A stretch of DNA of 64,000 nt. It comes from Gammaproteobacteria bacterium (GTDB taxonomy: Bacteria; Pseudomonadota; Gammaproteobacteria; UBA4575). Location: NCBI GenBank assembly GCA_965220875.1, contig OZ244849.1:1466401-1530400 (forward strand). The letters run 5' to 3'. The notes beneath the pieces are model-generated. The model searched no databases and was not told the DNA's origin. It worked only from the letters and a program-made list of their open reading frames with translations. Below are positions 1,693 through 63,540 of the stretch, in pieces; within the stretch, counting starts at the first letter, position 1, and the number at the start of each line of letters is the position of its first letter. The position numbers and the translations under genes were made by a program.

Positions 1693-1710
1693 CCGGGGAG
1701 GGTATCCGTC

Positions 1711-11277: not shown

Positions 11278-11538
11278 GGCAGCACAACACTTCAAATTGA
11301 GTGTAAGCACGTCTCTAAAGAATATTTTGCAAGACTTAAACGATCATCGCCCACTGTTAGGAGCAATTTTCTGCATACCCAAATACTAAATTCACTTTCT
11401 GTTCCCTTAGTTCTGACAAATGTTTCGTTCCCCTATCATCAGTGCCATACTATCAAGAAATTAAATCGTAATTTCAAGTTATGGGCTTGACTTGTGAGTT
11501 TAGCTGTATTATCATGCAGTTAACACAGGAGAGAAGCC

Positions 11539-12426: not shown

Positions 12427-14021
12427 ATCACCTGTACTACGGGGATTGCCTGACCATCATGCAGGAAATGCCCCTTGCCAGCGTGGACCTGATCTACCTT
12501 GATCCGCCGTTCAAATCAGACAAGGACTACCACAGCATCTACAAGGATGAGACGGGCCGCCCGCTGCCAGACCAGATCGAGGCGTTCTGCGATATGTGGA
12601 CGCTCACTCCAGAGCGCGAGCGGGCCATCAGGCAAATGCCCGCCATGCTTCGGGAGACTGGCATTGATGACAGCGTGGCAGAGTTCTGGCGCATTTGGAT
12701 GAATGCACTGCGCAAGACGCAACCAGACCTGCTGGCCTACCTGTCCTATATGGTGGAGAGGCTTATTTGGATGAAGGGCCTGCTGCGTCCTGCTGGCTCG
12801 ATCTGGCTTCATTGTGATCCCGAAGCCAGCCACTACATCAAGGTCATGCTTGACGGGATATTTGGGCACAACAACTTCCGCAATGAGATTACCTGGAAGC
12901 GTACCAGCTCGCACAGCGACTCAGGGACAATGGGCTGGGTGCATGACGTTCTGCTGTACTACACCAAGGGTGAAAAGTTCACTTTCAACACCGAGCACGC
13001 ACCGCATGACAAGGACTACATAGCCTCTCACTACCGGCACAAGGATAAGGCTGGCCGGAGATTCAGAACTGATAATGTCACGGCTGGCGGCCTGACTGGT
13101 GGCGGGTATGAGTATGAATGGAACGGAGTGAAAAAATGTTGGCGTTACCCTGAACATCGAATGCAGGAGTTACATGATGCGGGCAGGTTGCGATATACGC
13201 GCACAGGCACAGCTGAATATATTCGGTACTTGGATGAATCGGATGGAGTGCCCGTATCGGATTGGTGGGGCGATATTCCGCCTGTCAATTCGCAAGCCAA
13301 GGAACGTATGGGATACAGGACACAGAAGCCACTGAAACTTCTGAAACGCATCATCGGGGTGTCCAGCAACGAGGGAGACGTGATATTTGATCCATTCTGT
13401 GGCTGCGCCACGACCTTGGAAGCAGCCCACGCAATGGAACGCAAATGGATCGGGGTTGATATTGCTATTCATGCTGTCAAACGGGTAGCCAGAATCAGGC
13501 TGCAGGACAGGCTGGGTCTGGTAGAGGGCAAGGATTTTGAAATTGATGGGGTGCCACGCGATCTAGAGGGAGCCAAGGACCTGTGGGAACGAGACAAGTA
13601 CCACTTCCAAAAATGGGCCATAGAGGAGGTGGACGGGTTTGCCACAACCAAACGCACAGCCGATGGTGGTATTGATGGGAGACTCTATTTCGGTGACGTG
13701 GACAGGGATCTGAAAAGCATGGTAATCGAGGTCAAGGGCGGCAAGAATGTGAACATTGCAGACTTGCGGGCATTGCATAGCGTCATGGAACGTGACGATG
13801 CAGAAATGGCTGGCCTGATCATCATGGAGCCACTAGGCAGCCGGAAGGCCAAAAACTTTCATAGGCTGGTTGCCGAGGCGGGTGATATGACAGTACGAAG
13901 CAGGCCGTTTCCCAGAATGCAAATACTGTCAGTGCCAGAGATACTGGCAGGCAAGCGATTTGATACCCCGTACCCGCGTGGCAAGTCGGACCTAGTTCAA
14001 CCAGATATTGGACAGTTCTAG
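12423..14021 (+). CDS. Beta-class amino (N6-A/N4-C) DNA methyltransferase with a C-terminal PD-(D/E)xK-like domain
   Basis: DPPF (motif IV) near the N-terminus and FDPFCGCATT (motif I) downstream, i.e. beta-class order; C-terminal GIDGRLYF...VIEVKGGK nuclease-like motif; start overlaps the tnp stop (ATGA). Confidence 0.75.
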   Translation: MNHLYYGDCLTIMQEMPLASVDLIYLDPPFKSDKDYHSIYKDETGRPLPDQIEAFCDMWTLTPERERAIRQMPAMLRETGIDDSVAEFWRIWMNALRKTQPDLLAYLSYMVERLIWMKGLLRPAGSIWLHCDPEASHYIKVMLDGIFGHNNFRNEITWKRTSSHSDSGTMGWVHDVLLYYTKGEKFTFNTEHAPHDKDYIASHYRHKDKAGRRFRTDNVTAGGLTGGGYEYEWNGVKKCWRYPEHRMQELHDAGRLRYTRTGTAEYIRYLDESDGVPVSDWWGDIPPVNSQAKERMGYRTQKPLKLLKRIIGVSSNEGDVIFDPFCGCATTLEAAHAMERKWIGVDIAIHAVKRVARIRLQDRLGLVEGKDFEIDGVPRDLEGAKDLWERDKYHFQKWAIEEVDGFATTKRTADGGIDGRLYFGDVDRDLKSMVIEVKGGKNVNIADLRALHSVMERDDAEMAGLIIMEPLGSRKAKNFHRLVAEAGDMTVRSRPFPRMQILSVPEILAGKRFDTPYPRGKSDLVQPDIGQF

Positions 14022-14328
14022 TTGAATCAGGTATTTTAAGCCCATAACTTGAAATTACGCAATATAATTGTGGACTTTCATCATTCCATCTTGGATTTCA
14101 GAATCCGACTGCTCTTTAGACAAGACCTCTATATTTTTAAGCACTCTGCGTCCAGTATGTTTATCTACACCCAGAGTATCCAAGGTGATATTGAAAGCAA
14201 GCATTATCCCCTTGATCGTATTTTCGCTTGTATTATCAGGAGTGGATAAATAGCTTGCCTCTTCTAGATTGGCCATATTTCTTCCTTCATCGTGAAGTTA
14301 GTTCACGCATTGATATTCAGTGATGCAT

Positions 14329-21943: not shown

Positions 21944-22188
21944 ATAGCCTGTATAAGCTACTGATAATAAAGGGGAGCTTAGAATATGGATAGTTGTTTT
22001 GGTGCTTGTTCTGTCGGAACACGCTTTGAACCTTGGTAGACTTGCATCCTTTCAAATTGCTTCTCCGTTATCTTTAAAATGCGTACCTCCCCCTTCGGGG
22101 GGAGTATCTTTTTTCGCATTTGTACGCTTTTGGACTTGACAAGTTAGGGTAGTCCCTGTAGTCTATAATCATAGACAAGGGGGCTGAT

Positions 22189-23095
22189 ATGAACATACTA
22201 GATATCTTCCAATCATTCAAAACACAAGAGCAGGCTATCGAATACCTTGAGCAGGTACGCTGGAAAGGCGAGCCGGTTTGTCCATACTGCAAAAGCAAAA
22301 AAACTCACCGGCATGCCAGCGGTGACAGGGCTGACACTCGTTGGCAGTGCCAAGAGTGCACACGGGCCTTTTCAGTCAAGGTAGGCACCATCTTCCACGG
22401 GACACACATTCCCTTGCAGAACTGGTTTCTGCTATTGGGCCTGATGCTGAATGCAAAGAAATCAGCCAGTGCGTGCCAACTGGCCCGTGATCTTGGAATG
22501 AGGCGGCCTACAGTATGGCGCATGATGCACAAGGTTCGCGTGGCTATGGCTAATGATCAAACACAGTCAGATTTGCTTCATGGCATCGTAGAAGCAGATG
22601 AAACCTATGTGGGCGGCAAGCCACGCAAGAGAAAAGTTAACAAAAACAACGATCTACCCCCCCCCCTCAGCCCCTAGAGGCCGTGCTACCCGTAAAACCC
22701 CGGTAATAGGTGTCGTAGAACGTCATGGTCAGGTAAGGGCAGCGACTGCTGAAAGGCGCGACCTGTCAGCCAAAGGGCTGACCCGATTTATCAAGAAACA
22801 TGTGGACCCTGAAGGCTCATGGTTAATGACTGATGAGTACCGTGCCTACCGAAGCATGGCCAAGTTCATTGACCATTCTGTTATTGCCCACACAAGAACG
22901 TATGTTGAGGGGATAGTACACACCAACACGATTGAGGGTTTTTGGGCACTGCTGAAACGTGCATGGTTCGGGTCACACCATCACTACAGCAAAAAGTACA
23001 TGGATTTGTACGTGTCCGAGGCTTGCTACAAGTACAACAGGCGTGAGCACAAGTGTTCATTTGATCACTTGTTGGGGCTCATGGTCAACGCATGA
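22189..23095 (+). pseudogene. IS1595-family transposase disrupted by a frameshift at a 10-C homopolymer
   Basis: ORFs 22189-22677 and 22598-23095 together span a full transposase (zinc ribbon ... HTNTIEGFWALLKR); frame changes at C10 tract 22657-22666. Confidence 0.8.
22657..22666 (+). repeat. Poly-C homopolymer (10 C) inside the transposase coding sequence
   Basis: Seen directly; the copy A transposase has no such tract at the corresponding position. Confidence 0.9.
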
Positions 23096-24729
23096 ACCGG
23101 CTGTACTATGGCGATAATCTTACAATCATGCAAAAGGAGATCGCCGCCCAGTCTGTTGATCTGATCTATCTTGATCCACCCTTCAATTCACAAAAGAATT
23201 ACAACCTGATTTACACACAGGCCACGGGGAAGCCTGTCCCCGCACAGGTGGAAGCCTTTTGTGATACATGGGAACTGGATGCCGAAAAGGAAGAGCTGGC
23301 AAGCAAGATGCCGGTTATCTTGAGAGCCCATGAAGTAGAGGACTATTACGTTAAATTCTGGCGGTACTGGATACTTGCATTACGCAATACCCATCCCAAA
23401 CTTCTGGCCTACCTGCTGTACATGGTGCAAAGGCTTTTGTACATGAAAATTTTATTGAAGCCTACAGGGGCTATCTATCTTCACTGCGACCCGAATGCAA
23501 GCCACTACATCAAAGTCATGATGGATGGGATATTCGGACATGGCAACTTTCGGAATGAAATTACCTGGCGGCGTGTAACTTCGGATCAGAAGGGCAGCCA
23601 ACATGACAGGAAGAGCTGGGGAAACAACGCGGATATCATTCTGTTCTACACAAGGTCCAACCAGTACAAGCTGCATGGAACGCGGCCATTGACTACAGAG
23701 GAAGCTGTTCAGAAATTTAACCAGACTGACGAAACTGGCAGGCGTTATTACGATGACAGCTCACACATATGGAGGACACCCGGCATGGGGCCTCGGCCTA
23801 ATCTGTGCTACGAATGGCGCGGATTTACAAACCCGCATCCAAGCGGGTGGAGGCTGAAGAAGGAAAGGCTTGAAGAGGAATACCAGAAAGGCAATATTGT
23901 TATCCGGCCTGATGGCAAGCTGGAGCGCAGGAAATACGAGGAAGATTATCCGGGTGCGCCAATCGGGAATATATGGACAGACATTGGCCCCGTCCCTGCC
24001 AGAAGTGGTGAACGTATAGGCTACCCTACACAGAAACCAGTGACCCTGCTCAAGCGTATTGTTAGGGCTTCTTGCCCACCTGACGGGCTTGTTTTCGACC
24101 CTTTCTGCGGATGCGGAACTACGACCTACGCAGCACAGGAAACGGGTCGCCGCTGGATTGGATGCGATATAGCGATATTGGCTATCAAGCTGATCAAATA
24201 CAATCTTGAAAAGGCATATGGATTGCACGAAGACAGGGAATTTGAAATTGACGGAATCCCGGTGAGTGTGGAAGGTGCTGTACAGCTATTCAGGAAAGAC
24301 CCGTTTCAGTTCCAGCATTGGGCTGTGGAGCGGGTGGACGGTTTCCCTACTCAAAAGAAAGTGGCAGACAAGGGCATAGACGGCAATATCTATTTTGAAA
24401 CGGATGACGGCTACAAGGACATGGTTATATCTGTGAAGGGCGGGACAGTAAGACCGACAGACATACGCGATCTGAGAGGCGTGCTGGAACGTGATACGGA
24501 CAGTGGCACAGTGATGGCGGGGTTTATATCAAACAGGGAACCTACCAAGGCTATGAAGGATGAGGCGGCCAAGGCAGGCATGTATACTTATGCAGGCCAT
24601 GATTACGAACGCATCCAGCTATTGACTACCAAACAGATACTGGAAGACAAGATGGAGTTCAGGACACCCAGTAAAATTGGTGTGAAGCAAAAGATGGGAC
24701 AGCTAAACCTTGACATCATCAGAGCGTAG
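23092..24729 (+). CDS. Beta-class DNA methyltransferase with C-terminal PD-(D/E)xK-like domain (paralog of 12423-14021)
   Basis: DPPF ... FDPFCGCGTT; C-terminal GIDGNIYF...VISVKGG; ATGA overlap with the transposase stop; roughly 55-60% identity to the copy A MTase by eye. Confidence 0.75.
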   Translation: MNRLYYGDNLTIMQKEIAAQSVDLIYLDPPFNSQKNYNLIYTQATGKPVPAQVEAFCDTWELDAEKEELASKMPVILRAHEVEDYYVKFWRYWILALRNTHPKLLAYLLYMVQRLLYMKILLKPTGAIYLHCDPNASHYIKVMMDGIFGHGNFRNEITWRRVTSDQKGSQHDRKSWGNNADIILFYTRSNQYKLHGTRPLTTEEAVQKFNQTDETGRRYYDDSSHIWRTPGMGPRPNLCYEWRGFTNPHPSGWRLKKERLEEEYQKGNIVIRPDGKLERRKYEEDYPGAPIGNIWTDIGPVPARSGERIGYPTQKPVTLLKRIVRASCPPDGLVFDPFCGCGTTTYAAQETGRRWIGCDIAILAIKLIKYNLEKAYGLHEDREFEIDGIPVSVEGAVQLFRKDPFQFQHWAVERVDGFPTQKKVADKGIDGNIYFETDDGYKDMVISVKGGTVRPTDIRDLRGVLERDTDSGTVMAGFISNREPTKAMKDEAAKAGMYTYAGHDYERIQLLTTKQILEDKMEFRTPSKIGVKQKMGQLNLDIIRA

Positions 24730-24731
24730 CA

Positions 24732-24971
24732 CTAGTATAGTCCAAAAGCGTACAAATGCGTCTTTTTTATTCTTTTGCAGTGTACTTCTGCACTTTCATC
24801 ACTGGCACAGTGTCTAGTGTAAACGGAGTACTGCAGCATTACAAAGCCGTCCGTCATTAGTCTTTTGCGAAATCTACTGTACTGGTATCGGTCAGATTTG
24901 GTTTCGGTTGGGAGGTCAAAAAGAACCATAGTCCACAAACTTCGAAATCCTCCGAAAATGATTTCAGTCAT
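24732..24971 (-). CDS. cas2: Cas2, C-terminally truncated by the IS insertion (last 9 codons and stop supplied by the IS end)
   Basis: MVLFDLPTET...RFRKRLMTDGFVMLQYSVY matches type II Cas2; the reading frame continues across the empty site into a Cas2-like C-terminus ending at 21979. Confidence 0.75.
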   Translation of the reverse strand: MTEIIFGGFRSLWTMVLFDLPTETKSDRYQYSRFRKRLMTDGFVMLQYSVYTRHCASDESAEVHCKRIKKTHLYAFGLY

Positions 24972-25855
24972 ACCAAAGCAGGAATAGTCAGCTTACCTTT
25001 ATGTGTTTCCAACACTTTGCGCAAACTAGCGCAGTAGACTGCCAGCGCACTCATGCAGGGGGTTTTGCGTTTTTTGATTAAAACTGGAGCACTGAGTACT
25101 GTAAGTAAATCATTTTTTGCATTTCTATCCAATCCATTGAATGTTTCGGCTTGTGACAATTTTGCGACACACCGATCTATCAACGGCCTTAGTGGTTCCA
25201 TTACATCATCAGCCAAACAAAAAACATTGTATTGGTTATGATGATGTATGCCGAAAGCAGGATGTAGCCCTGCACTCATGAGTGCACGAGAACATGCTGT
25301 CCGAATCAGACTGTACCCATAATTCAGAAGAATATTTACATCATTTGATCCACTCTGATCCCGTTTGAAATCTTTACCAAAAAGAGATTTGAAGTAGATT
25401 CGAGATGCTTGGGATTCATGATTAGCCGTATCATTCAGTCGCACCGTTTTTGCCAGTCGTTGCAGTCTGGCACTTGTAATCCCATGAACTGAAGTGAGCA
25501 CTGCCGACTGCGTGTAGATTTTTGCTCGAATGATTTGCTGCCAAATAATGTGATGTACTTGTTCTGGAGTTGACGCTTGCATGCGCATAATCCTGCCTTG
25601 AGTTGTATGAGCATCGAGTGGTAAAAGCAGGGAGGCAGGGAGGTGTTTTTCATCCGTGACAATGAGTGCAATGTTTTGTTTGGCACAGTGTCGAAATACG
25701 CTTTGACTGCACGTAATCTGTGGATTGTCCAGAATCAAAAAAGCGATATCATCAAAAGGAATGCTGTGTTTGCCTTCCTCATTTAGGACGATCAACTGGT
25801 TAAGACTGACTTGAAGATGTGCTTCTGAAGAAATTTCTATAGTTCTACGGATCAT
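24968..25855 (-). CDS. cas1: Cas1 (type II)
   Basis: About 295 aa from ATG 25855 (ATGA overlap with the cas9 stop); Cas1-like throughout; an upstream GTG at 25930 is an alternative start. Confidence 0.8.
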   Translation of the reverse strand: MIRRTIEISSEAHLQVSLNQLIVLNEEGKHSIPFDDIAFLILDNPQITCSQSVFRHCAKQNIALIVTDEKHLPASLLLPLDAHTTQGRIMRMQASTPEQVHHIIWQQIIRAKIYTQSAVLTSVHGITSARLQRLAKTVRLNDTANHESQASRIYFKSLFGKDFKRDQSGSNDVNILLNYGYSLIRTACSRALMSAGLHPAFGIHHHNQYNVFCLADDVMEPLRPLIDRCVAKLSQAETFNGLDRNAKNDLLTVLSAPVLIKKRKTPCMSALAVYCASLRKVLETHKGKLTIPALV

Positions 25856-28800
25856 GCTGACGATAACAACCCCAGGTTTCCTAACTCTACCTTCCTGCAG
25901 TTCAGTTTGTCCAAGGATGTAATTCGCCACATTCCCCAGTCTGATTCAGTCCCCGAGACACTATGATGGCGCAGAAAAAGGTCTATCCTCTTGTCACCAC
26001 TGCCGCTCATTTTCTGCACTCTGAAGTACGGTGTCTCTGCGTGCTCAGGTGCAAATTTATTCATATCTTTAAATATACTCATATCCTCGCAATACACCAT
26101 ATCATTGATGCATAGATCCAATTCGTAATACCACCCTTCCAACTCAGAAGGCGGCTCTTTTACTATGACCGGTTTTCCTGCACTGGCACGCTTAGCGGCC
26201 TCCAGCATTGTTATAATCTGAAATCGCCTTTCTTTGTTAGTACCCTCCTGTCCATTATGAAAGATGATCATGTGATGATTGCTGCCGGACAGGACATATG
26301 AGTTGCCTGTCTTGATATAAGATTTTGTCATCGGTCGCGCAATACGAGCTTTCAGGATAGGGGTAGAGGGATTACCTCTTTTGTCAAGCACACGAGGTGG
26401 TGTCTTATCTAGTTTCGCTTTAATTGTGCTGGATTTTTCTCCTACTAGATTATTTATTTCCAACCAGTAGAAAAGGGCATCATGAATAGATTTCTCAACT
26501 ACCCATGTACCAGTCCCTGGTGTCCAATTCCTGGAAAGTTTGGACAGGTACTCAGCTGTCAATTCCTTGCGGCAAGTCACACAAGGTGTCTGATAGATAA
26601 TTTTTGTCAGCTCTTTTCCTTTCCAACGGGGCAATGTGCGGTCAGTTGGCTTAAGTTTTTTTACTTCCGCAGCCCAATGTAACAGGACTGAGCGCAGGTC
26701 CTCATCCAGAATACAACTGCCGCCATCCCCATCTGGTTCAGCTTGTGCAATTTGCTGCACTTTTTTTAGAATATTTGACCTCATGCTCTCAATGTTCAGG
26801 CACTGGTCAAAGTACGATTTTCCATAATTAGTCTCTTCGTGCAAAGCGCCCCAGACTTTGCGTTTGATCATGTGGGATACGACAGTGGTATTCAACCGAT
26901 TACTCAAAAGACTGTGCAAGTCATGACTATCCTCCCAGCTTGTAGACAATCTCAAACGATTCTTCTTGATCCAGTCTTCTTTGGTAGTTCGATGCGGCAA
27001 AAACTTCTTATCCTGTTCCTTTTTATGGGCTTCAATCATTGACTTCAGCATGGCCCGGTCAGTAATGGCCACCACAAACGCATCCACTGCGTGATGACGA
27101 TGGTCGTGTCTCGATTTCTCAGACTTTTCTGCTTTGTCCGCACTATATTGCAAAATTTCACCTGTCTCTGTATCAATCTCTTTACCTGTTTCTATATAGA
27201 CACCAGAATCAGGTTTCCGAGGCAAAACGGAGTTCAATCCCAGTCTCCGACGAAGCTCACTTGTAGCTGCACCGTTATTAACGTCGATTGGTACTCCATA
27301 TTTTTCCAACATCTTTTTTGAAGCTGTAGCAATGTACCGGGTATCATTGAGTTGTCTATTTACGAAATCACTTTCACTTTCCGGGCAATGTGCCTTTTTA
27401 AGGAGATTGTTTCGCTTGCGGAGATTCTGATCCTTGCCAAATTTTTCCTTGGCGAACTTCTCTATATGCTGCCATCGATTCTCATTATGTCCCCAAGCTT
27501 CATAAGGTGTTTGCTTTCCTTTTTCATCATTACAACTGCGGCAACTGACAAGCGTATTCATGTAATTCTGTCTGAAACCTGTGTACGGAAGGATATGCTC
27601 AACTTCTGCTCCACCAGAAAACAGTTGACCGATACCGATCAACTTCTGGCAGTAAGGGCATTGCTCATCCTGCTCTTTCCACATCTTGTATTTTGATCGG
27701 TCATCAGGACTGATACGGCAGGCGACACCTCCTCGCACTCCCTCCAGGTTGATCCCGATACTGCCTGTTTTGTAGTGTTTCAGAATTTCCTCTTCCGCAT
27801 CCTCGTTTCGTTTCCTGTTCTGATTTTGCTGGCTTGCAATCTCAGCACGGTGCCTTTTTGAAGATTTCATCTCCCGCGCCATCTCAATACGGATAATGGC
27901 TGGCTTGCCATAATGCTTCACAATTGCATTCACTACGCGACGTATTTCATAGAGCGCTTTCTGCACGGTCGGGTTCGCTATATTCGGGACATCCTCAATT
28001 TTCAACAGGTACCCTTCGTTAGTCGCTTTCTGTATCTTAGTAATGCTTTCAATTTGTCCAATTTGTTTTACTGCTGCATAAAGGTCCATACCATCACGCA
28101 GATGAGGGAGTAATTCGTTGATAGCCTTAAGACTGTACTTACTATAGCCATCTTCCAACTGTTCGTTCACGGCAAGTCCCAAAGCACCCTTTTCATGGTC
28201 ACGATTAGGAAGATAGGAAGGAAACTTCCAATACTTAACAAGTCTGTCATACAACGTTTTTTTATTGTGCATTGTATGCAGATCTTCAACTAATTTAGTC
28301 TGCTTTTCCTTACCTAATTGCTGCCACGCTCGAATACCAATTGAATGGCTGACGGCTTGAGCCGTTCGATTCCCGATGAGGCCATTTTTCCCTGCACCGT
28401 CATCACGACTCTCGCCATAATTTAGATCCTTGACCTTCACATCTAGCGCCCTAGCAACTTCTTTCCACGAGATACGCCCTTGCCTGTTTAATCTCTCTGG
28501 ATCGTCAGCTAAGTTCGTCAACTGCTCTCGCTGCTCTGCAGTTAACGGTTTTTCACCGATCTGTATATTGTTGATGACCTGAAGGGTCCGGAATTCCTGG
28601 AATTCCAGCCGCATCACAGTTGTGCGTTTCTTTTTTGGATAGATGCTGCAGTTACCTACCGTACTCTTTTGCAATTGAAGCGGGCGTTGATCGAAAATTG
28701 CATCTTTTATCCTAGTAGATTCGTCCTCAGAAAAATGTTGAAAAGAATGTTGCTTTTCCCATATAGCATCAAATTCCCTTTCATACATTTCGCGACTGGC

Positions 28801-29595
28801 ACGAAATTCCAATTTTTCAATAACAGTTTCACCTTTATGGGGTTTGGACCTTTCAAACTGAAACAGCGTGATGCGATGAGGTGGTATTTGCTTATCCTGC
28901 GATGCCTGCCAAATAAACTGGCCAAGGGTACGGTTGCCAAGCTTTTGATCTAACTCGTCAATCGCTGCTAAAACAAGACCTGTTTCTCTTTTCTCCTCCC
29001 CACTCAGGGTGTCCTGATCATCTTTAGGCGTTATGAGGTTCAAGGACTTAATCAGTTCAACATACTTTGCGCCCCGATTGCTGAAATACCCACGTCTGCG
29101 TTGCAAATGCAGTAGCAATCTACCAAACTCGTGAGGCTCCAGTTCTTCTACCAAAGAAAAATTTCGCATGGCATAAGGAGAGCAGTACGCTTTGTCAGTA
29201 ACAGACCATGCCTTGGACCAGGGTTTGCCAAGCTTGCGTTCGGCATATCTTCGGTCGATTTTATTAAGCGCTTTTTCCGGATTTACTTGGTAGTCCTGAG
29301 GTAGCAAACCTTTATTTAGAAGTATGCTTACAAGTTTTTTACGACGTTCTTTGTAATATGCTCGACGGTTGCGGGCACCATGTGCCTCACGGCGTTTTTG
29401 ATTTTTTGGGACCCGTGTTTTGGCCTCCAGCATCTCCAAAAATATGCGAGAGTTCAAAGCGCGCAATGAAACCGGCTGATAGCCGGCATAAATTCCTTGA
29501 TGGTTGCCTTCCTCTAGCTTGCAATCTACAACTGCCCATCCAATAGAACTGGAACCCACATCTAGGCCAAGAATGTAGGAATCTTTGTTTTGCAT
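25852..29595 (-). CDS. cas9: Cas9 (type II-C-like, 1247 aa)
   Basis: RuvC-I ILGLDVGSSSIGWAVV; arginine-rich bridge helix; HNH CPYCQ...EVEHILPYTG...CRSCNDEKG; RQLNDTRYIA and HHAVDAFVVAIT RuvC motifs; no csn2 or cas4 nearby. Confidence 0.9.
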   Translation of the reverse strand: MQNKDSYILGLDVGSSSIGWAVVDCKLEEGNHQGIYAGYQPVSLRALNSRIFLEMLEAKTRVPKNQKRREAHGARNRRAYYKERRKKLVSILLNKGLLPQDYQVNPEKALNKIDRRYAERKLGKPWSKAWSVTDKAYCSPYAMRNFSLVEELEPHEFGRLLLHLQRRRGYFSNRGAKYVELIKSLNLITPKDDQDTLSGEEKRETGLVLAAIDELDQKLGNRTLGQFIWQASQDKQIPPHRITLFQFERSKPHKGETVIEKLEFRASREMYEREFDAIWEKQHSFQHFSEDESTRIKDAIFDQRPLQLQKSTVGNCSIYPKKKRTTVMRLEFQEFRTLQVINNIQIGEKPLTAEQREQLTNLADDPERLNRQGRISWKEVARALDVKVKDLNYGESRDDGAGKNGLIGNRTAQAVSHSIGIRAWQQLGKEKQTKLVEDLHTMHNKKTLYDRLVKYWKFPSYLPNRDHEKGALGLAVNEQLEDGYSKYSLKAINELLPHLRDGMDLYAAVKQIGQIESITKIQKATNEGYLLKIEDVPNIANPTVQKALYEIRRVVNAIVKHYGKPAIIRIEMAREMKSSKRHRAEIASQQNQNRKRNEDAEEEILKHYKTGSIGINLEGVRGGVACRISPDDRSKYKMWKEQDEQCPYCQKLIGIGQLFSGGAEVEHILPYTGFRQNYMNTLVSCRSCNDEKGKQTPYEAWGHNENRWQHIEKFAKEKFGKDQNLRKRNNLLKKAHCPESESDFVNRQLNDTRYIATASKKMLEKYGVPIDVNNGAATSELRRRLGLNSVLPRKPDSGVYIETGKEIDTETGEILQYSADKAEKSEKSRHDHRHHAVDAFVVAITDRAMLKSMIEAHKKEQDKKFLPHRTTKEDWIKKNRLRLSTSWEDSHDLHSLLSNRLNTTVVSHMIKRKVWGALHEETNYGKSYFDQCLNIESMRSNILKKVQQIAQAEPDGDGGSCILDEDLRSVLLHWAAEVKKLKPTDRTLPRWKGKELTKIIYQTPCVTCRKELTAEYLSKLSRNWTPGTGTWVVEKSIHDALFYWLEINNLVGEKSSTIKAKLDKTPPRVLDKRGNPSTPILKARIARPMTKSYIKTGNSYVLSGSNHHMIIFHNGQEGTNKERRFQIITMLEAAKRASAGKPVIVKEPPSELEGWYYELDLCINDMVYCEDMSIFKDMNKFAPEHAETPYFRVQKMSGSGDKRIDLFLRHHSVSGTESDWGMWRITSLDKLNCRKVELGNLGLLSSA

Positions 29596-31798: not shown

Positions 31799-31969
31799 AA
31801 TGGACAGGGCCTGTGTGCTAGTCTAAATCTGGTTGTTTATCCATTGAGGTTTGACAGGTGAGACCGTAGACTTTGTCATGACTTGCTCGCATGCCAGCCT
31901 GTGTAGAAGGTTATCGCGTTCATGCATCTGGCACGAGCTACATCATCCCAGTACTTTTCGGGAAAGCCG

Positions 31970-33151
31970 ATGCTGACATTTACAGAGGAACTCTTGCTCA
32001 TGCTGGGGGATGAGGAGGGCCTGTTTCTTCCCGTCAAGGAACATGCCTTTGAATGTGCACTGGCCGGTGCCATCCTGATGGATCTTGCCTTCGCATTTCG
32101 TATTGACACAGACCTGCAGGCACTCGTGGTCACCGACCCCACCCCTACGGGCAATCCCATGCTCGATTATGTGCTGGCAAAGATTGTTGCCCGCACGGAC
32201 ATTACAGACACCCCGACCTGGATCCGGGTCTTGGCCACCGAGGATGCCGCAGTGATTCGTGAGCAGGCCCTGGATGGCCTAGTGGGGCACCGCATCCTGA
32301 AAAGGCAGCACAACCGCTTTCTGGGGGTGTTTCGCTCCACCTGCTATCCCACCCTGGATGACCGGCCCGTGCAGGCGATCAAGTCACGCATCGAGGCAGT
32401 CGTCTCCGATGACATTCCGGACCCGCGGGACGTGGCCCTGATCTCCCTGGTGGACGCCTGCCAGATTCTCCCTGACCTGTTTCCCAAGTGGGAGGCGGAA
32501 CGCACCAACTCCCGGCTTGATCTGTTGCGCAGGATGGACCTGATCGGTCGCGAGCTCACCGGCACCATCACCGAAATCCAGAGCCGGATCATCCGTGCGG
32601 CACGCGCCCAGGCAGAACGCTTCAGGAAGACCCTACTAAGCCTGGCTGCGGTGGGCAGCGCGGCCACGATCGCAACCCTGCTGGTGCCGAGTATCGGGGT
32701 TCCGGACCGCTGGGGTCCTTCGCTCCCCGGGCTGCTCTGGTTCGACGGGTTCTGGAAGCAGTTCAGCGGCTACCTGCTGCTTGCACTCAGCATGGCCGGG
32801 CTGACAGTCGCGGTCACAATCAAGAAGCAGCTGCTGGCCTGGGTCTCGGGTTCACATCGCTGGAGGCTTTCCCACATCGTACTCGGCCTCGGCTGTGTAT
32901 TCATCCTCTTCATGCACACGGGATTTCGCCTGGGCAGCAATCTGAATGCCGCGCTGATGGGCAGTTACCTCACCGTGCTGCTGTCGGGCACGCTGGTCGG
33001 CGTGGTGGTCGGGGCAGCGCCGCGACTCAAGCAGATGGGCCTGCACAGGATCGGCCCGGCCCGGCGCACCCTGCTTTGGGTCCATGCCCTGGCGACTTGC
33101 CTGCTGCCGGCCCTGCTCATCGTTCACGTACTGTCCGTGTATCTCTACTAG
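31970..33151 (+). CDS. GPP34/GOLPH3-like domain protein with C-terminal multi-TM domain
   Basis: MLTFTEELLLMLGDEEG N-terminus resembles GPP34-family proteins; 4-5 C-terminal TM helices; about 65% GC. Confidence 0.5.
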   Translation: MLTFTEELLLMLGDEEGLFLPVKEHAFECALAGAILMDLAFAFRIDTDLQALVVTDPTPTGNPMLDYVLAKIVARTDITDTPTWIRVLATEDAAVIREQALDGLVGHRILKRQHNRFLGVFRSTCYPTLDDRPVQAIKSRIEAVVSDDIPDPRDVALISLVDACQILPDLFPKWEAERTNSRLDLLRRMDLIGRELTGTITEIQSRIIRAARAQAERFRKTLLSLAAVGSAATIATLLVPSIGVPDRWGPSLPGLLWFDGFWKQFSGYLLLALSMAGLTVAVTIKKQLLAWVSGSHRWRLSHIVLGLGCVFILFMHTGFRLGSNLNAALMGSYLTVLLSGTLVGVVVGAAPRLKQMGLHRIGPARRTLLWVHALATCLLPALLIVHVLSVYLY

Positions 33152-51700: not shown

Positions 51701-51777
51701 TGGTCGGAGTGAGAGGATTTGAACCTCCGACCACCGCAACCCCATTGCGGTGCTCTACCAAGCTGCGCTATTCCCCG
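51701..51777 (-). tRNA. tRNA-Pro (anticodon GGG) with two mismatches at the base of the acceptor stem
   Basis: Reverse complement CGGGGAAUAGCGCAGCUUGGUAGAGCACCGCAAUGGGGUUGCGGUGGUCGGAGGUUCAAAUCCUCUCACUCCGACCA has the general tRNA-Pro cloverleaf layout; anticodon loop AUGGGGU; positions 6-7 do not pair with 66-67. Confidence 0.6.
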
Positions 51778-57728: not shown

Positions 57729-58700
57729 ATGATTCTCTCACATGAAGATTACAGTAAGTGGCCGTACCACTTTGAGTTTCAACGCATGACCTGCTCTTCA
57801 TGTGAAGCGTTTGGTGAAGATTTTCTCACTGTCGATGACAGAGAAAGGATATTTGAAGCTATTTTGAGCGGACCCTCCAAGCAGGATTTCCAGGAGCAGG
57901 CTGGGGACAAATTTACTGAAGAACTTTTCGAGGGTAGAAAATCCCGTTTCCACACGATGCAGCTAAGACCATTTGGTTCTGTGCTTTTTGGGAAATATCT
58001 GGACTACTTCCAGGAATTGGAAAACAAGAGCCGCGAAACAATCAAGGACATTGACTACCCACCTTACATGCCTGAAGGCTTTGTCCGGGTAGGGGAGTGT
58101 AGTCCAAAGTCAAACGAGGAATTGAAGCAGATGAAAGACGGGGAGATTCTTTCATACATCAATAACTGGCAAGATGCTCATTATGACTCTGAAACATTTT
58201 CAAGACATATAAGTATTTCAGGGTTTGCCGACGAATTTCAATCAGTCTTTAAAGAAGCGATTATCCCTGACAGTGAACGTCTGCGTTTCTGGGTCGCGAA
58301 CAGGAGCAAAATCAAAAGACCTATTTATATTCAGGCAATAATTTCTGCTATACGCAAAGATGTAGAACTAAAAAATTTTGAAGAGCTCAGCTGTTGGTTC
58401 AAGCTCTGTGAGTGGGTTCTACGTCATCAAGATCACCTAAGGGAAGAAGGTACCGATTATAGTGATGAGTCGGTAGAGAACCCGGGTTGGAACAGTTCAA
58501 GACGAGCAGTGGGCGATTTTATCGAAAGCTGCCTGAAGGATGGGGTCGATGTCCCTCTCTGTGCCCGCGAAGACATCGCCGCTTTATTGGACATGCTTTG
58601 CACTCAATATGATTGGCGGCTGGATGAGAACAAGCCTGTATTTCAGGATTTGGATGAACCGCTTACCGAGGAAATTAATGGGGATTATATACCTAAGTAA
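57729..58700 (+). CDS. Hypothetical protein
   Basis: 323 aa ORF, same strand, 9-bp spacing from the previous ORF. Confidence 0.45.
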   Translation: MILSHEDYSKWPYHFEFQRMTCSSCEAFGEDFLTVDDRERIFEAILSGPSKQDFQEQAGDKFTEELFEGRKSRFHTMQLRPFGSVLFGKYLDYFQELENKSRETIKDIDYPPYMPEGFVRVGECSPKSNEELKQMKDGEILSYINNWQDAHYDSETFSRHISISGFADEFQSVFKEAIIPDSERLRFWVANRSKIKRPIYIQAIISAIRKDVELKNFEELSCWFKLCEWVLRHQDHLREEGTDYSDESVENPGWNSSRRAVGDFIESCLKDGVDVPLCAREDIAALLDMLCTQYDWRLDENKPVFQDLDEPLTEEINGDYIPK

Positions 58701-58830
58701 CTGAGATTGTTGATTTTTGTTCGTTACTGTAATATAATTATTTACATTATAGTAACGTTAAAAAGTAAGGAAAATGAGTACGAAAGCACCAAAAGCACCA
58801 GGAAAATCATACAGAGAAGGTATTTCACTT

Positions 58831-59718
58831 ATGAAGGCTATGGACATGTTTCCAGATGATGAAACAGCCAGAAAGTAGTTTGAAGAAACTCGATGGCCTG
58901 ACGGAAATGTGCATTGTCATAAGTGCGGTTCTACCAATGTACAGTGTGGAACCAAGCATCCTACCATGACGCACAGATGCAGGGATTGTGGCAAGTTCTT
59001 TTCTGTGAAGTCTGGAACTGTAATGCAAGGTTCCAAGTTAGGTTATCGTGTTTGGGCCATTGCCATATTCCTGCTGACTACCAACCTCAAGAGTGTATCC
59101 AGTTTGAAGCTGCATCGTGATCTGGACATTACCCAAAAAACAGCTTGGCACCTTGCACACAGACTTAGGAAAGGCTGGCAGAGTGGACAAGGTTCATTTT
59201 CTGGTCCTGTGGAATTTGATGAAGCCTATATCGGAGGCAAGGAGCGAAACAAGCATGCAAACAAGAAGCTGAGGGCTAGCAGAGGTGGAGTCGGCAAGTC
59301 AGTTGTTGTGGGCATCAAGGACAGGGAAACCAACAAGATCAGCGCAAGACTGGTAGGCGACACGACTATGGAAACACTACATGACTTTGTGCTGAGTCAC
59401 ACTTGCGTCAATGCTTCCATCTACACGGATGACCATCGCTCTTATCAAGGCTTGCCGAATCACGAAGTGGTTAAGCATTCGGTCAGTGAGTATGTACGGG
59501 ATCAGGCGCATGTGAACGGGATTGAATCCTTCTGGGCACTGCTGAAAAGAGGCTATCACGGCACATTTCATCACATGTCAGAAAAGCACCTGGACAGATA
59601 CGTTGGTGAGTTCTCAGGTCGGTATAACCAAAGGGACTACGACACCATTGATCAGATGAAGTTGATCGTCAGAGGCCTTGAAGGAAAAAGCCTCAAGTAT
59701 CGGGAACTGGTGAACTAA
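58831..59718 (+). pseudogene. IS1595-family transposase with an in-frame TAG at codon 16 (58876-58878); otherwise intact
   Basis: MKAMDMFPDDETARK-TAG-FEETRWPDGNVHCHKCGS zinc ribbon ... EFDEAYIGGK ... HVNGIESFWALLKRGYHGTFHH; GTG at 58909 could re-initiate. Confidence 0.75.
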
Positions 59719-59850
59719 GATGAACTGGGTAGACGCAAGGTACAAGTGCACTCCCCAGCATTATCTTGAAAAGTTGGTAAAAACTGTCAGAAAGGATGTC
59801 GCTGCTTTCAACAAACTTCCTGGCGATAAAAAGGTATTCAAGTCGAAGAT

Positions 59851-60147
59851 GTGACCTCCGGGGTACAGGTTTACCAAGGCAAGTATGTCTACAATATGCA
59901 AAACAGGATTCTGGTTAAGGACGAGGAGCTGTCTTACGATTATGTGGAGTTAGTGCTGCAAGACTCAAATCTGATTGCTCACAGAGCCGAGCAGTGGAGT
60001 TTTGAAATCAAGACCCAATGGAACGAGCAAAAGCTGGAATGTGATTTGTATATTGAAGAAGGGAATGTGCTTTACATTTCCATGCTAAACACCCATCATT
60101 CTCCTGTCTCCATAGCTAAAGTAACCCAATGTCGGGTCTCTTGCTAA
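59851..60147 (+). CDS. Hypothetical protein
   Basis: 98 aa ORF. Confidence 0.35.
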   Translation: MTSGVQVYQGKYVYNMQNRILVKDEELSYDYVELVLQDSNLIAHRAEQWSFEIKTQWNEQKLECDLYIEEGNVLYISMLNTHHSPVSIAKVTQCRVSC

Positions 60148-60184
60148 ATACAATAACCTTTGGGTAAATAGGCAGAACATCTTC

Positions 60185-60812
60185 ATGAACAGGTTAATAC
60201 TTTTTCTCGTATTACTGCTCAGTACAGGGGTAAGTGCAGAAATCGATCTCACAAAGCCATCCTATAACTATGTCAGTCTGGAGTATGAAGTCGCCGATGA
60301 CCATGATGGGTCAAACGCAGTAACTTACGGATTCTGTTTCGAACCTGTAAAAGACCATGACTGGTTTCATATCTTCGGAGGTTGGCAGGAAGGAAACCTT
60401 GACCTTTCAATGGGCGTCAGGGCAAAGCGTGAAGGTTATCTTGTTGGCGGCGGGTTCAAGCACTACCTGAATGAGCGCAGCACAGTCCACGCCAGAATAG
60501 GTTACGTGGATTCAACGACAAGGATAAGAGGGGTTAGGATTCCCACACCTGGGGGGGGGGGTGATTGAACTGCCTACCTTGAGTGTTTCAGCTGTAGGTA
60601 AATATATTGAACTGGGAGCCAGAACTGTTCTGAAACCCAAATGGGAACTGATCAGTTTTGCCAGCTATGTAGACGCTGGCGGGTTCATCCGGCGATTTAT
60701 CTGGACGACACTGGAATATCGTGTTCTGGATAACCTTGGGCTTAACATTAGTGCAAGGGTTCAAGATGGAGAAGGCGATGCTGTGATCTATGCCATGAGA
60801 TATCATTTTTAA
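60185..60812 (+). CDS. Small outer-membrane beta-barrel protein, out of frame at an 11-G homopolymer (phase OFF as sequenced)
   Basis: Signal peptide MNRLILFLVLLLSTGVSA; ORFs 60185-60568 and 60561-60812 join into one about 209-aa protein ending ...YAMRYHF if the G tract were 10 nt. Confidence 0.65.
60551..60561 (+). repeat. Poly-G homopolymer (11 G) within the OMP coding sequence
   Basis: Seen directly. Confidence 0.9.
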
Positions 60813-61033
60813 CAGTGATTGGAGGCAAGATGTGAAAAAGAAAAGAATCATCAAACTGAAACACCTCAGCTACCAGCCGAAAAAGGCCGAGTTGGAAAAG
60901 AAAATTAGGATCAAGGCAACACCAGAGGAATTTGCGAAAGCCTTGATGCAGGATGTTGAAATCAAGTACGAGGAATGAGGGGTGGTTCGTTACTTAGGTA
61001 TATAATCCCCCAATTAATAATACAAGAAGCCGG

Positions 61034-61735
61034 GTGCTGGAAAGCTTGGTCAAGTTTGGTTATTGGGTACGTAACAAAACTAAAAACCAACAGGCAGAAA
61101 CACCAGAAGTTTTTGACATTCTGAACAAAAGGCTTGCTCCAGCATCTGACTACCCACTGACCGTGCCTGAATATGCCATCCTTGGGAGATGGTTTGGCCA
61201 TATATGGGAATTGGATCAAAATTGGACGACAGAGCATAAAAAATATTTTTCCCCACAGCAGACTATGCAGGCCTGAAAGGCAGCTTTCGAAAATTACTTG
61301 AGGTGCTTTCATCCCCGTGAACCAATCTTTGATACAGTAAAAAGTGAGTTTGTATTTGCACTTAAGAATCTCGGTAAATTTGAAGTGGGTCACGACCAAA
61401 GAGACGAACTGAAGAACTCCTTAAGCAAACACTTATTTTCATATTATCTTTGGGAAGCATACCCGCTGAAAGGGAGCAGTAGCTTGCTGGAGAAATTTTA
61501 CGAAAGTACTGAGGAAAACAAGACTCACTGGGCTGATTTGTTTGGTCATGTGGGCCGTATATTGAAAAACAACGAACAACTGGATAGTGGTATTAAGCAA
61601 AGAATCATCGAGTACTTTGATTGGCGCCTGGAAAAGAAAGATAAATCCGAGCTTAAAGAATTTACTTTTTGGCTTGAAGCTAGGTGCCTTGAAAATTTGA
61701 TTGGGTTCAGGGATGTAACAGCGATCCAACGATAA
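61034..61735 (+). CDS. Hypothetical protein; two same-frame ORFs separated by a TGA at 61274-61276
   Basis: ORFs 61034-61276 and 61298-61735 share a frame. Confidence 0.3.
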
Positions 61736-62016: not shown

Positions 62017-63540
62017 TTGACAGCTGAAGAAAAGCTGGCCAGGAGGAAGCTGAGTGCGCTTCAGCGCGGAATACATCGAATCGGTGCGGAGGACACTACT
62101 CCATGCTCGGTTTCAGTGGTGGGGATAGGCAAAACAGGCGCAGACGTCATTGCACAGATTTTAAGAGAGAAAGCAGAACGTCAGGTCGAATCCGACAGTG
62201 CCCCGTTGAATGTGCTCGCCGTGGACATTGGTGACCAGGATCTCCATCAGCTACGTGAACTTGCTGACAAGCTGCCCGGGGATGCTGCAAATGTTGAAAC
62301 GGTGGCGCTTGAAGTCCCTGAGCGGGATGAACTTTTCAACAGTTTGCGCAGAATGCGTGAATTTCTAAAACTCGAATATCCCCGATACTACTGGAATCCA
62401 AACTACGAGCCCTGGCTGCCTTCCGGCATCAGCTTGTCCAAGGAAGGGGAACACTTTCAGCGTTCGGTATCAAAAGCCATTTATGCAAAAAGCTACTATG
62501 ACGGCACACGTCCGATGCGTGATGCGATGAAGCGTTTTGCCGAGAATGTCGACAATCTGCCAGGCCAATCCGTGGTGGCTGTAGTGTTCGGTCTCGGCGG
62601 CGGTACGGGCAGCGGGATCATGGTCGACATGGCACGTCATCTTTCGAATGTCTGCTTTGGCAGGCGTGCACTGGTGGTTGGCGTTGCAATTTTGCCCTGC
62701 GAAGGCGATGATGAAGCCCATCGAGGCAGTCATTTGTTCCCTGCCTTGAATGAGCTGGACTGCATGGGCGATGAGGAAAAGAACAAGGGTGTGGTGTCCG
62801 TCTGGGGTGACCTGTACCGGAATCCGTTTACGGGTGGTGTGATTGTCGTTCCTCAGAAGGCGGTTTGGGAGACAACTCGTGACTTGGAAGAAACCCATGC
62901 GCGAATGGACCGGGAAATTTCGGCATTTTTGACACACAACAATGGTATAGATCTTTGGGAAACACTCAGGATGCTGAACTGGGTAGGCGCTCCACCAACA
63001 CAGCATGCTGCGGCTCGAACTCCATATGGCAACCGGTGGGCGCATGTACTGGGATTTGCTGATACCGAGGGGGACCTGCAGGCGAGTGATGATATGGCCG
63101 GTCGCCTGGGAATTCGCGACACGTATAAGCCGGAGTTCTTGGAAGTACGGGCGGCTGACCCGGAAGATGATAGGGCTTCCAAGGCTGCCCAGGCTTTAGG
63201 CAAGTCGTTTTCGCCGGTGGCAGAACCCGCGATTGCTGCTTCGGCCGGACTGGGCCCGACGTCCATGCAGTTCGTCCTGCCCTGCATAAACAAGTTGGAT
63301 TTTGATTTGTTTTTCGAATCGCGCCAGGCCTATGACCAGAACGAGTGGGAACAGAAGCTGGCATGTCATGCGTGGCTGGTGGACTTGGGCGTCATGCTTT
63401 GCGAGCCGGCTATCCGGTTTAACGGCATGGCGGGAGAATGCCTGTGGGGTTGCGCCTGCTGGGTGGTCGTACCCTATGACCAGATTCGCGGACCGGATCT
63501 TGAACAAAATGTAAAAACCGCAGCAGCTGAGGCAGGCTAA
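62017..63540 (+). CDS. Tubulin/FtsZ-superfamily GTPase (divergent; GGGTGSG signature)
   Basis: 507 aa; VVGIGKTGADVIAQI glycine-rich N-terminal loop; VVFGLGGGTGSGIMVD matches the tubulin T4 signature [SAG]GGTG[SA]G. Confidence 0.6.
   Translation: MTAEEKLARRKLSALQRGIHRIGAEDTTPCSVSVVGIGKTGADVIAQILREKAERQVESDSAPLNVLAVDIGDQDLHQLRELADKLPGDAANVETVALEVPERDELFNSLRRMREFLKLEYPRYYWNPNYEPWLPSGISLSKEGEHFQRSVSKAIYAKSYYDGTRPMRDAMKRFAENVDNLPGQSVVAVVFGLGGGTGSGIMVDMARHLSNVCFGRRALVVGVAILPCEGDDEAHRGSHLFPALNELDCMGDEEKNKGVVSVWGDLYRNPFTGGVIVVPQKAVWETTRDLEETHARMDREISAFLTHNNGIDLWETLRMLNWVGAPPTQHAAARTPYGNRWAHVLGFADTEGDLQASDDMAGRLGIRDTYKPEFLEVRAADPEDDRASKAAQALGKSFSPVAEPAIAASAGLGPTSMQFVLPCINKLDFDLFFESRQAYDQNEWEQKLACHAWLVDLGVMLCEPAIRFNGMAGECLWGCACWVVVPYDQIRGPDLEQNVKTAAAEAG

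What the first reader, a model, noticed from the sequence alone, without database searches (positions are those of the whole stretch)
60185..60812. Outer-membrane protein gene interrupted by an 11-G tract: likely slipped-strand phase variation (currently OFF)
A signal-peptide-bearing beta-barrel protein of about 209 aa, ending in the OMP-typical ...YAMRYHF, is split into two overlapping ORFs at GGGGGGGGGGG (60551-60561). With 10 G the frames fuse as PGGGVIELPTLSV. Homopolymer-driven ON/OFF switching of surface proteins is typical of host-adapted Gram-negatives. It fits the TbpB/fHbp-like lipoproteins elsewhere in the window.
Basis: partly seen in the sequence, partly recalled or inferred. Interest (0 to 1): 0.55.

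Follow-up and report, generated by a model that had tools for sequence, protein, structure and literature searches.

The report
Poly-G switch in IS-borne membrane protein
A gene for a small outer-membrane barrel protein, carried inside a jumping-gene element in a probable sponge-symbiont genome, is switched off by a run of 11 G's whose length varies between strains, and relatives of this gene in other sponge bacteria carry similar variable G or C runs in both on and off states.

Summary
An 11-G run (60551-60561) splits a 208-aa outer-membrane protein gene (60185-60812). A run of 7, 10 or 13 G restores the frame. The fused protein has full-length in-frame homologs and models confidently as a 10-stranded barrel, with the run at the tip of the longest loop.

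A 99.5%-identical metagenome copy has 8 G, also out of frame, so the run is hypermutable. The protein family is very small and is found in sponge-associated MAGs and metagenomes. Its genes are about 40-fold enriched for G/C runs of 9 or more, at five or more different sites. Near-identical alleles differ only in run length, with both in-frame and out-of-frame states (9/12/13 C; 10/11 G).

Both halves of the window gene show purifying selection, and 49 of 51 family-invariant residues are kept.

Slipped-strand ON/OFF switching, currently OFF, is therefore the best explanation (confidence about 0.6).

Caveats:
- The gene is a passenger in a 2.3-kb IS1595-family element whose transposase carries a stop codon.
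- Both known alleles of this locus are OFF.
- The sister allele shows decay.

Incipient pseudogenisation (0.25) and a homopolymer miscall (0.08) remain open. The mechanism is known, but the protein family and the sponge-symbiont setting are new.

The parts
60185..60568 (+). 5' part of the OMP gene as it now reads (ORF1, 127 aa): signal peptide plus strands 1-5, ending in a stop just after the G run
   Evidence: Homologs align over residues 1-121. The model shows strands E29-37, 44-52, 61-73, 79-96 and 99-114.
60551..60561 (+). 11-G homopolymer, the proposed slipped-strand switch. 7, 10 or 13 G would be in frame (ON); 11 G is OFF.
   Evidence: The allele in L001/L002 has 8 G. In the in-frame form the run encodes Gly123-125, at the tip of the hairpin loop between strands 5 and 6.
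60562..60812 (+). 3' part of the OMP gene in the +1 frame: strands 6-10 and the C-terminal ...RYHF
   Evidence: dN/dS is 0.13 against the L003 homolog. 21 of 23 family-invariant residues downstream of the run are kept.
58680..58701 (+). Left terminal inverted repeat of the IS1595-family element that carries the OMP gene
   Evidence: Perfect 22-nt inverted repeat with 60989-61010, with no other copy in the window
58774..59718 (+). IS1595/ISXO2-type transposase gene, interrupted by an in-frame TAG at 58876-58878. The longest open part is 58909-59718.
   Evidence: PF12762 hit at E 1.7e-37. The stop was read from the sequence.
59851..60147 (+). 98-aa ORF of unknown function between the transposase and OMP genes, inside the element
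   Evidence: No Pfam hit. The same ORF is present in L001/L002.
60832..60978 (+). 48-aa ORF of unknown function between the OMP gene and the right inverted repeat
   Evidence: It was also called as a gene in L001.
60989..61010 (-). Right terminal inverted repeat of the element
58672..58679 (.). Left copy of the 8-bp target-site duplication (AAATTAAT). The right copy is 61011-61018 (CAATTAAT, 7 of 8 identical).
   Evidence: Removing 58680-61018 restores one 402-aa reading frame.
57729..58679 (+). 5' part of the host gene that the element inserted into. It continues at 61019-61276.

Best explanation
The locus encodes a secreted 10-stranded outer-membrane beta-barrel of 208 aa whose expression is gated by an 11-G run in the codons for the tip of its longest, most variable loop. 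During replication the run gains or loses G's by slipped-strand mispairing. Lengths of 7, 10 or 13 G give the full barrel with 2, 3 or 4 glycines in the loop (ON). Other lengths, including the present 11 G, end translation after strand 5, so no barrel can form (OFF). The gene belongs to a small family seen only in sponge-associated MAGs and metagenomes. In that family G or C runs have arisen at several positions, mostly in the signal-peptide leader, and alleles differ in run length between ON and OFF. This copy travels as a passenger in an IS1595-family element within the cargo of a conjugative island. Shown here: the run, the frame logic, the length polymorphism, the barrel model, the family-wide enrichment and ON/OFF alleles, and the IS boundaries. 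Inferred: that switching is reversible and frequent in living populations, that the loop is surface-exposed, and that variation is favoured by fluctuating selection on a surface protein such as phage attack or host recognition.
Against: Both alleles known for this locus (11 G and 8 G) are OFF and in the same frame. The L001 allele also carries F61L and W153L at conserved positions, plus a 1.2-kb deletion next door, as expected if the gene has been silent for some time in that lineage. The carrier element looks dead, because its transposase has an in-frame TAG, and the gene it inserted into has a further in-frame stop. Other family members are plainly decaying: a nonsense codon in L003, a non-homopolymer frameshift in L010, and deletion remnants in L025-L031. 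The enrichment statistic counts related genes, so the runs are not fully independent. No read-level data were available, so within-population heterogeneity was not shown.
Confidence: 0.6

Rival explanations
1. Incipient pseudogene. The frameshift is effectively permanent, and the OMP gene is one more decaying passenger of a dead IS in a degrading island. The G run is only the mutational weak point where the inactivating lesion happened to fall.
For: The transposase of the same element has an in-frame TAG. The interrupted host gene has an extra stop. The sister allele is also OFF and carries F61L and W153L, plus a 1.2-kb deletion mediated by a 9-bp direct repeat next door. Other family members show nonsense codons, other frameshifts and deletions.
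Against: The window copy keeps 49 of 51 invariant residues, and the downstream half has dN/dS 0.13, so any inactivation is very recent. An 11-nt run can revert at high rate. The family-wide recurrence of runs, with both ON and OFF alleles, is not expected from random decay.
Confidence: 0.25
2. Sequencing or assembly miscall of a long homopolymer. The true run is 10 G and the gene is simply intact.
For: The window comes from a 2.045-Mb contig, probably a long-read assembly. Both homopolymers of 10 or more in the window cause frameshifts that a single deletion would repair: the OMP gene and the IS1595 transposase at 22657-22666.
Against: An independent metagenome sample, assembled twice (L001 from ENA and L002 from Logan), gives 8 G, which is also out of frame. 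Long genes elsewhere in the window are intact: TraC 899 aa, Cas9 1247 aa, an autotransporter 689 aa that contains a C7 run. There is therefore no general indel problem. OFF-frame runs recur in family genes from MEGAHIT, SPAdes and long-read assemblies.
Confidence: 0.08
3. Non-heritable rescue. The DNA stays at 11 G, but RNA polymerase slippage or a +1 ribosomal slip on the G run yields a fraction of full-length protein. This would be constitutive low expression rather than ON/OFF switching. It is not exclusive of the best explanation.
For: Homopolymers allow perfect re-pairing after a slip. Rescue of frameshifted genes at long homopolymers by polymerase infidelity is known for poly(A) runs in insect endosymbionts (from memory, not tested here). 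The downstream half is well conserved.
Against: No stimulatory element follows the run, and the zero-frame stop lies two codons after it. From memory, slippage is documented mainly for A/T runs. The DNA-level length differences between alleles already account for the variation.
Confidence: 0.07

Closest known systems
Neisseria meningitidis OpcA (Opc), a 10-stranded outer-membrane adhesin with phase-variable expression
   Different: Sequence identity is only 9% and there is no Pfam hit, so homology is not shown. The OpcA run lies in the promoter and tunes transcription. Here the run is inside the coding sequence and acts by frameshift.
Coding-region contingency loci of host-adapted bacteria (poly-G/C runs in Campylobacter, Helicobacter, Haemophilus and Neisseria surface genes; repeats in the Opa signal-peptide region)
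   Same: A simple repeat inside a surface-protein ORF, with length changes that move the gene in and out of frame. In this family most runs lie in the signal-peptide leader, as in Opa (established knowledge, from memory).
   Different: The hosts are uncultured sponge-associated bacteria of several phyla, not animal pathogens. Switching rates and phenotype are untested. The window's run is mid-gene in a loop, not in the leader.
Listeria monocytogenes inlA 5' poly(A) tract and homopolymeric tracts as general gene inactivators (Orsi et al. 2010, PMC2831843)
   Same: A homopolymer in a surface-protein gene that frameshifts recurrently and reverts about 1000-fold faster than the point-mutation rate.
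   Different: Those are A/T runs of up to about 7 nt. Here the runs are G/C and 7-13 nt long.
Small outer-membrane barrel families: OMP_b-brl (PF13505) and Ax21/OmpO (TIGR04273)
   Same: Similar size, signal peptide and C-terminal aromatic residue. There is a weak TIGR04273 match (E 4e-5), and precomputed PF13505 hits on the relatives P0005 and P0008.
   Different: The window protein has no Pfam hit. The TIGR04273 score is 23.7 bits against a cut-off of 250. The model has 10 strands.
IS1595-family transporter insertion sequences (IS with passenger genes; Siguier et al. 2009, cited in PMC3129680)
   Same: A DDE_Tnp_IS1595 transposase, short terminal inverted repeats, an 8-bp target duplication, and extra genes unrelated to transposition between the repeats.
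   Different: I know of no described example with an outer-membrane protein passenger (no literature search was made for one). This copy's transposase is interrupted by a stop codon.

Membership tests
Slipped-strand (simple-sequence) phase-variable contingency locus | A simple sequence repeat within the ORF or promoter of the gene | tested here: met
   11 G at 60551-60561 inside the ORF. Shuffles give 0.15 such 10-mers per window.
Slipped-strand (simple-sequence) phase-variable contingency locus | Repeat number differs between closely related strains or populations | tested here: met
   11 G in the window against 8 G in the 99.5%-identical L001/L002. Only two alleles are known.
Slipped-strand (simple-sequence) phase-variable contingency locus | Observed repeat-number variants include both in-frame (ON) and out-of-frame (OFF) states | tested here: inconclusive
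   At this locus both alleles are OFF. In homologs both states occur for the same gene: 12 or 9 C OFF against 13 C ON, and 11 G OFF against 10 G ON.
Slipped-strand (simple-sequence) phase-variable contingency locus | High-frequency, reversible switching within a clonal population | not testable with these tools
   This needs raw reads or culture and reporter assays.
Slipped-strand (simple-sequence) phase-variable contingency locus | The gene product is surface-exposed or mediates interaction with host or phage | tested here: inconclusive
   A signal peptide and a 10-stranded barrel model support outer-membrane location. Exposure of the loop and any interaction are inferred.
Outer-membrane beta-barrel protein (fold class) | N-terminal signal peptide, an even number of antiparallel transmembrane strands that close a barrel, and a C-terminal aromatic residue | tested here: met
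Pfam OMP_b-brl (PF13505) / NCBIfam Ax21-OmpO (TIGR04273) | Score above the curated cut-off of the family model | tested here: not met
   No Pfam hit even at E 10. TIGR04273 scores 23.7 bits against a cut-off of 250. Only faint precomputed PF13505 hits exist on some relatives.
OpcA family | Sequence homology to OpcA | tested here: not met
IS1595-family insertion sequence with passenger genes | DDE transposase of the IS1595/ISXO2 type | tested here: met
   PF12762 hit at E 1.7e-37 on 58909-59718. The gene carries an in-frame TAG at 58876-58878.
IS1595-family insertion sequence with passenger genes | Terminal inverted repeats that bound the unit, flanked by a target-site duplication | tested here: met
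   Perfect 22-nt inverted repeats at 58680-58701 and 60989-61010. The 8-bp flanks match at 7 of 8 positions. Excising the element plus one duplicate restores a 402-aa host reading frame.
IS1595-family insertion sequence with passenger genes | Additional non-transposition genes located between the inverted repeats | tested here: met
   The OMP gene and two small ORFs lie between the transposase gene and the right repeat.

The most novel reading that the evidence does not exclude
A previously undescribed 10-stranded outer-membrane protein family, confined to sponge-associated bacteria of several phyla (Gammaproteobacteria, Acidobacteriota, Nitrospirota, Dadabacteria and others), is a shared contingency gene. 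G or C runs have arisen independently at five or more sites and flip the protein ON and OFF in natural populations. The gene moves between lineages on IS1595 transporter elements and conjugative islands. That would mean sponge symbionts use pathogen-style stochastic surface variation, presumably against phage or host phagocyte recognition.
Probability: 0.4. Interest if true: 0.7.

Novelty: new member of a known kind. Interest (0 to 1): 0.55.

Why it matters
Homopolymer-driven phase variation is textbook biology for pathogens. Three full-text searches found no report of it for uncultured symbionts of marine sponges (one search listed none in its 15 best of 54 papers; one search found no paper). 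If the family-wide pattern holds, it marks one small surface protein as being under fluctuating selection across unrelated sponge symbionts. That gives a concrete handle on how these bacteria escape phage or host recognition, and it can be tested directly from existing metagenomic reads. It also shows an outer-membrane protein travelling as cargo of an IS1595-family element. That offers a route for the cross-phylum spread of the family. For genome annotation, split genes of this family should not be written off automatically as pseudogenes or assembly errors.

Tried and rejected
- Megablast of the locus against plasmids found no match.
- Pfam on the fused protein found no family.
- Exact-product look-ups of the window's ORF1 and ORF2 found no contig on record, so the source record name was not obtained. 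Cluster look-up showed only that the window comes from a 2.045-Mb contig.
- Two JGI metagenome scans, one by protein pattern and one by the exact DNA flank of the run, found nothing. No further alleles of this locus were obtained.
- The search for close relatives of the frameshifted IS1595 transposase was meant to test whether its 10-C run also varies. The best hit was only 70% identical, so the test was not possible.
- The many 106-aa members of the P0009 cluster were suspected to be mid-gene run frameshifts like the window's. They are deletion remnants that abut a methyltransferase gene.
- The promoter and terminator scan around the gene gave counts no higher than shuffles.
- Programmed ribosomal frameshifting was considered and rejected. 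No stimulatory stop or structure sits at the run, and the zero-frame stop is two codons downstream.
- The idea that ORF1 alone is functional was rejected. It holds only 5 of the 10 strands.

Full report
**1. Observation**

- The sequence holds exactly 11 G at 60551-60561.
- ORF1 (60185-60568, 127 aa) ends ...TPGGGGD*. ORF2 (60561-60812, 83 aa) is in the +1 frame and ends ...AMRYHF*.
- Removing one G or adding two gives a single 208-aa ORF that reads ...RIPTPGGGVIELPTLSV.... By the same arithmetic 7 G also fuses the frames.
- The window has only two homopolymers of 8 or more.
- Shuffles give 0.15 G/C 10-mers per window. The local GC is about 43-45%.
The only correction is 208 aa rather than 209.

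**2. The gene is real and encodes a barrel**

- A word-indexed search of 5.8 billion protein clusters found 5 relatives, and a profile search found 18.
- An exhaustive HMM search of 1.84 billion representatives found 6 at E<=1e-30 and 20 at E<=1e-10, followed by a tail of distant proteins of about 200 aa.
- Full-length relatives (210-243 aa, about 40% identical) align straight across the run, which falls in an indel-rich, Pro/Gly-rich segment.
- AlphaFold2 with a 17-sequence alignment gave mean pLDDT 87.7 and pTM 0.77, with ten long strands. Gly123-125 lie in the coil at the tip of a small hairpin (118-120 and 126-128) in the 17-residue connection between strands 5 and 6.
- Foldseek hits are outer-membrane barrels.
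- There is no Pfam hit, and only a far sub-threshold Ax21/OmpO hit.
- I infer that the 5-6 loop faces outward. This follows from the general rule that both termini of such barrels are periplasmic.

**3. The run is hypermutable**

- The metagenome scaffold L001, and an independent assembly of what is probably the same sample (L002), are 99.5% identical to the window over 1.8 kb.
- The differences are four substitutions, one 1-nt indel elsewhere, and the run, which is 8 G instead of 11.
- Both lengths are out of frame.

**4. The window copy is otherwise undamaged**

- Against the 66%-identical homolog in L003, dN/dS is 0.17 upstream and 0.13 downstream of the run.
- The window protein keeps 49 of 51 positions that are invariant in the other members. 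The two exceptions are conservative.
- By contrast, both substitutions that fall in the L001 OMP gene change conserved residues (F61L and the invariant W153L). L001 has also lost 1.2 kb next door between 9-bp direct repeats.

**5. Evidence from the protein family**

Genome hits are all MAGs:
- "Candidatus Poriferihabitaceae"
- Nitrospira SB0677
- Dadabacteria
- Acidobacteria
- Thermoanaerobaculia
- several "jk18x" Gammaproteobacteria and Alphaproteobacteria

The jk18x names are those used for the Caribbean Ircinia sponge MAGs of Kelly et al. 2022 (PMC9531527). Most metagenome hits carry the KELL22-1 label. I read that label as the same study, which is an inference.

Many members carry long G or C runs. 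Most lie between the start codon and the hydrophobic core, or at the end, of the signal peptide.

| Locus | Run | State | Notes |
|---|---|---|---|
| L003 | 13 C | OFF | |
| L005 | 12 C | OFF | |
| L017 | 13 C | ON | |
| L009 | 10 G | not settled | run in the leader; no ATG in frame |
| L013 | 9 C and 9 G | 9 C OFF | 9 G in frame |
| L018/L019 | 9 G | OFF | |
| L020 | 11 G | OFF | |
| L021 | 9 G | ON | |
| L022 | 10 G | ON | |
| L023 | 11 G | OFF | |
| L024 | 7 G | ON | |
| L006 | 7 C | OFF from its first ATG | |

- G/C runs of 9 or more number 12 in 15.6 kb of family genes against 4 in 215 kb of flanking DNA, binomial p about 1e-11.
- The genes are related, so these runs are not independent events. 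They do occupy at least five different positions.
- Orthologs differ in state. L005 and L017 are 92% identical in DNA and syntenic, yet OFF and ON.
- Members of the same 90% clusters show the L005-type gene with 9 C, 12 C and 13 C, and the L020-type gene with 11 G (OFF) or, in P0337, an in-frame form consistent with 10 G.
- GGG is only 18% of Gly codons in these genes.
- This is the signature of contingency loci.

**6. Context**

- The window starts in conjugative-transfer genes at 67% GC: TraC at 3526-6225 and TraG_N at 9415-10980.
- It continues as a low-GC mosaic that contains:
  - three IS1595-type transposases
  - two DNA methylases
  - a Cas9
  - an autotransporter
  - a GPP34-like protein
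  - a globin
  - a tubulin-like protein
- The OMP gene itself lies inside a 2,331-bp element bounded by perfect 22-nt inverted repeats at 58680-58701 and 60989-61010, which are unique in the window.
- 8-bp flanks match at 7 of 8 positions. Deleting the element and one flank copy restores a 402-aa host reading frame. The unit therefore transposed as a whole, as a transporter IS of the kind described for the IS1595 family (PMC3129680).
- Its transposase gene, which starts at the ATG at 58774, has an in-frame TAG at 58876-58878.

**7. Interpretation**

The best explanation is a slipped-strand ON/OFF switch that is now OFF (confidence 0.6). The run, the frame logic, the polymorphism and the family pattern are shown. 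Reversibility, rate, surface exposure and the selective agent are inferred.

Rivals:
- **Incipient pseudogene in a dead IS (0.25).** The transposase stop, the decay of the L001 allele, and other decayed family members (L003 nonsense codon, L010 frameshift, L025-L031 deletion remnants) support it. The intact state of the window copy weakens it.
- **Homopolymer miscall (0.08).** Both runs of 10 or more in the window cause frameshifts that a single deletion would repair. However, the independent 8-G allele is also out of frame, and the long genes in the window are intact.
- **Slippage rescue without DNA change (0.07).**

**8. Comparison and novelty**

- The mechanism is that of classical contingency loci, such as OpcA with its promoter poly-C run (PMC3447861) and inlA with its poly(A) run (PMC2831843).
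- The protein family is uncharacterised and matches no curated model.
- Full-text searches on sponge symbionts and phase variation turned up no report (none among the 15 best of 54 papers; no paper).
- I file this as a new member of a known kind, with moderate interest.

Noticed in passing
window 22657-22666 (within 22189-23095): The only other long homopolymer in the window is a 10-C run. It frameshifts an IS1595-family transposase gene in a variable linker, and 9 C would restore a 301-aa protein that aligns end to end with homologs of about 297-301 aa. It may be a second hypermutable run, or a hint of homopolymer miscalls.
   Followed up: partly
window 11467-14059 and 22115-24760: Two more IS1595-family elements are bounded by inverted repeats (22 nt perfect; 30 nt at 90%). 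Each carries an N6/N4 DNA methylase gene, one also with an Mrr-like nuclease domain, directly after the transposase gene. These would be transporter IS with methylase passengers.
   Followed up: partly
window 58876-58878: There is an in-frame TAG (where relatives appear to have Trp) in the N-terminal helix of the transposase of the OMP-carrying element, so this IS copy is probably immobile.
   Followed up: partly
window 57729-58679 + 61019-61276 (+61298-61735): The host gene hit by the IS has no Pfam match. Once restored, it reads through 402 aa, then meets a TGA, and then continues in the same frame for another 145 aa. It looks like a pseudogene with two lesions.
   Followed up: partly
window 1-11000 versus 11000-64000: There is a sharp composition break. 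F-type conjugation genes (TraC, TraG_N) sit at 67% GC, followed by 50 kb of mosaic DNA at 40-63% GC. This looks like a conjugative island with heterogeneous cargo. A tRNA-Pro lies at 51701-51777.
   Followed up: partly
window 25852-29595 (-): A 1247-aa Cas9 (RuvC_III, Cas9 alpha-helical lobe, HNH) lies in the low-GC cargo. No search for a CRISPR array was made.
   Followed up: no
window 31922-33151 and 62017-63540: Two eukaryote-like or unusual proteins are present: a GPP34 (Golgi phosphoprotein 3) domain protein at E 2.6e-39, and a tubulin/FtsZ-like protein (Tubulin_2).
   Followed up: no
L003 9917-9929 and 10469-10471: The closest full homolog (66% identity) sits between hflKC and hflX-hfq in a high-GC genome. 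It has a 13-C run in its signal-peptide leader (OFF) and a TAA where other members have Tyr. A cluster mate (P0338) has the Tyr codon.
   Followed up: yes
L021 2963-2971 and 3177-3185; L013 5630-5638: Further 9-nt G or C runs lie in intergenic DNA next to the family gene. In L021 one lies 56 nt upstream of a large Big/PKD/Calx-beta surface-protein gene. More phase-variable surface genes may exist in these symbionts.
   Followed up: no
L025-L031 (gene at 1501-1821 in L025): In several Ircinia gammaproteobacterial contigs only the C-terminal 106 aa of the family gene survive. The remnant lies 128 bp after a CMAS/sterol-methyltransferase-like gene and before a TonB-dependent receptor gene. It is a conserved deletion remnant.
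   Followed up: partly
L013 versus L021: The mature parts are 98.5% identical, but the sequence upstream of the G run is unrelated, with a different leader and an extra 9-C run in L013. This suggests recombination at or near the run.
   Followed up: partly
L010 about 6060-6075: The Thermoanaerobaculia copy is frameshifted at a site that is not a homopolymer (...GLTWASAS... in place of ...GLTLGFSF...). It is either ordinary decay or an assembly error.
   Followed up: no
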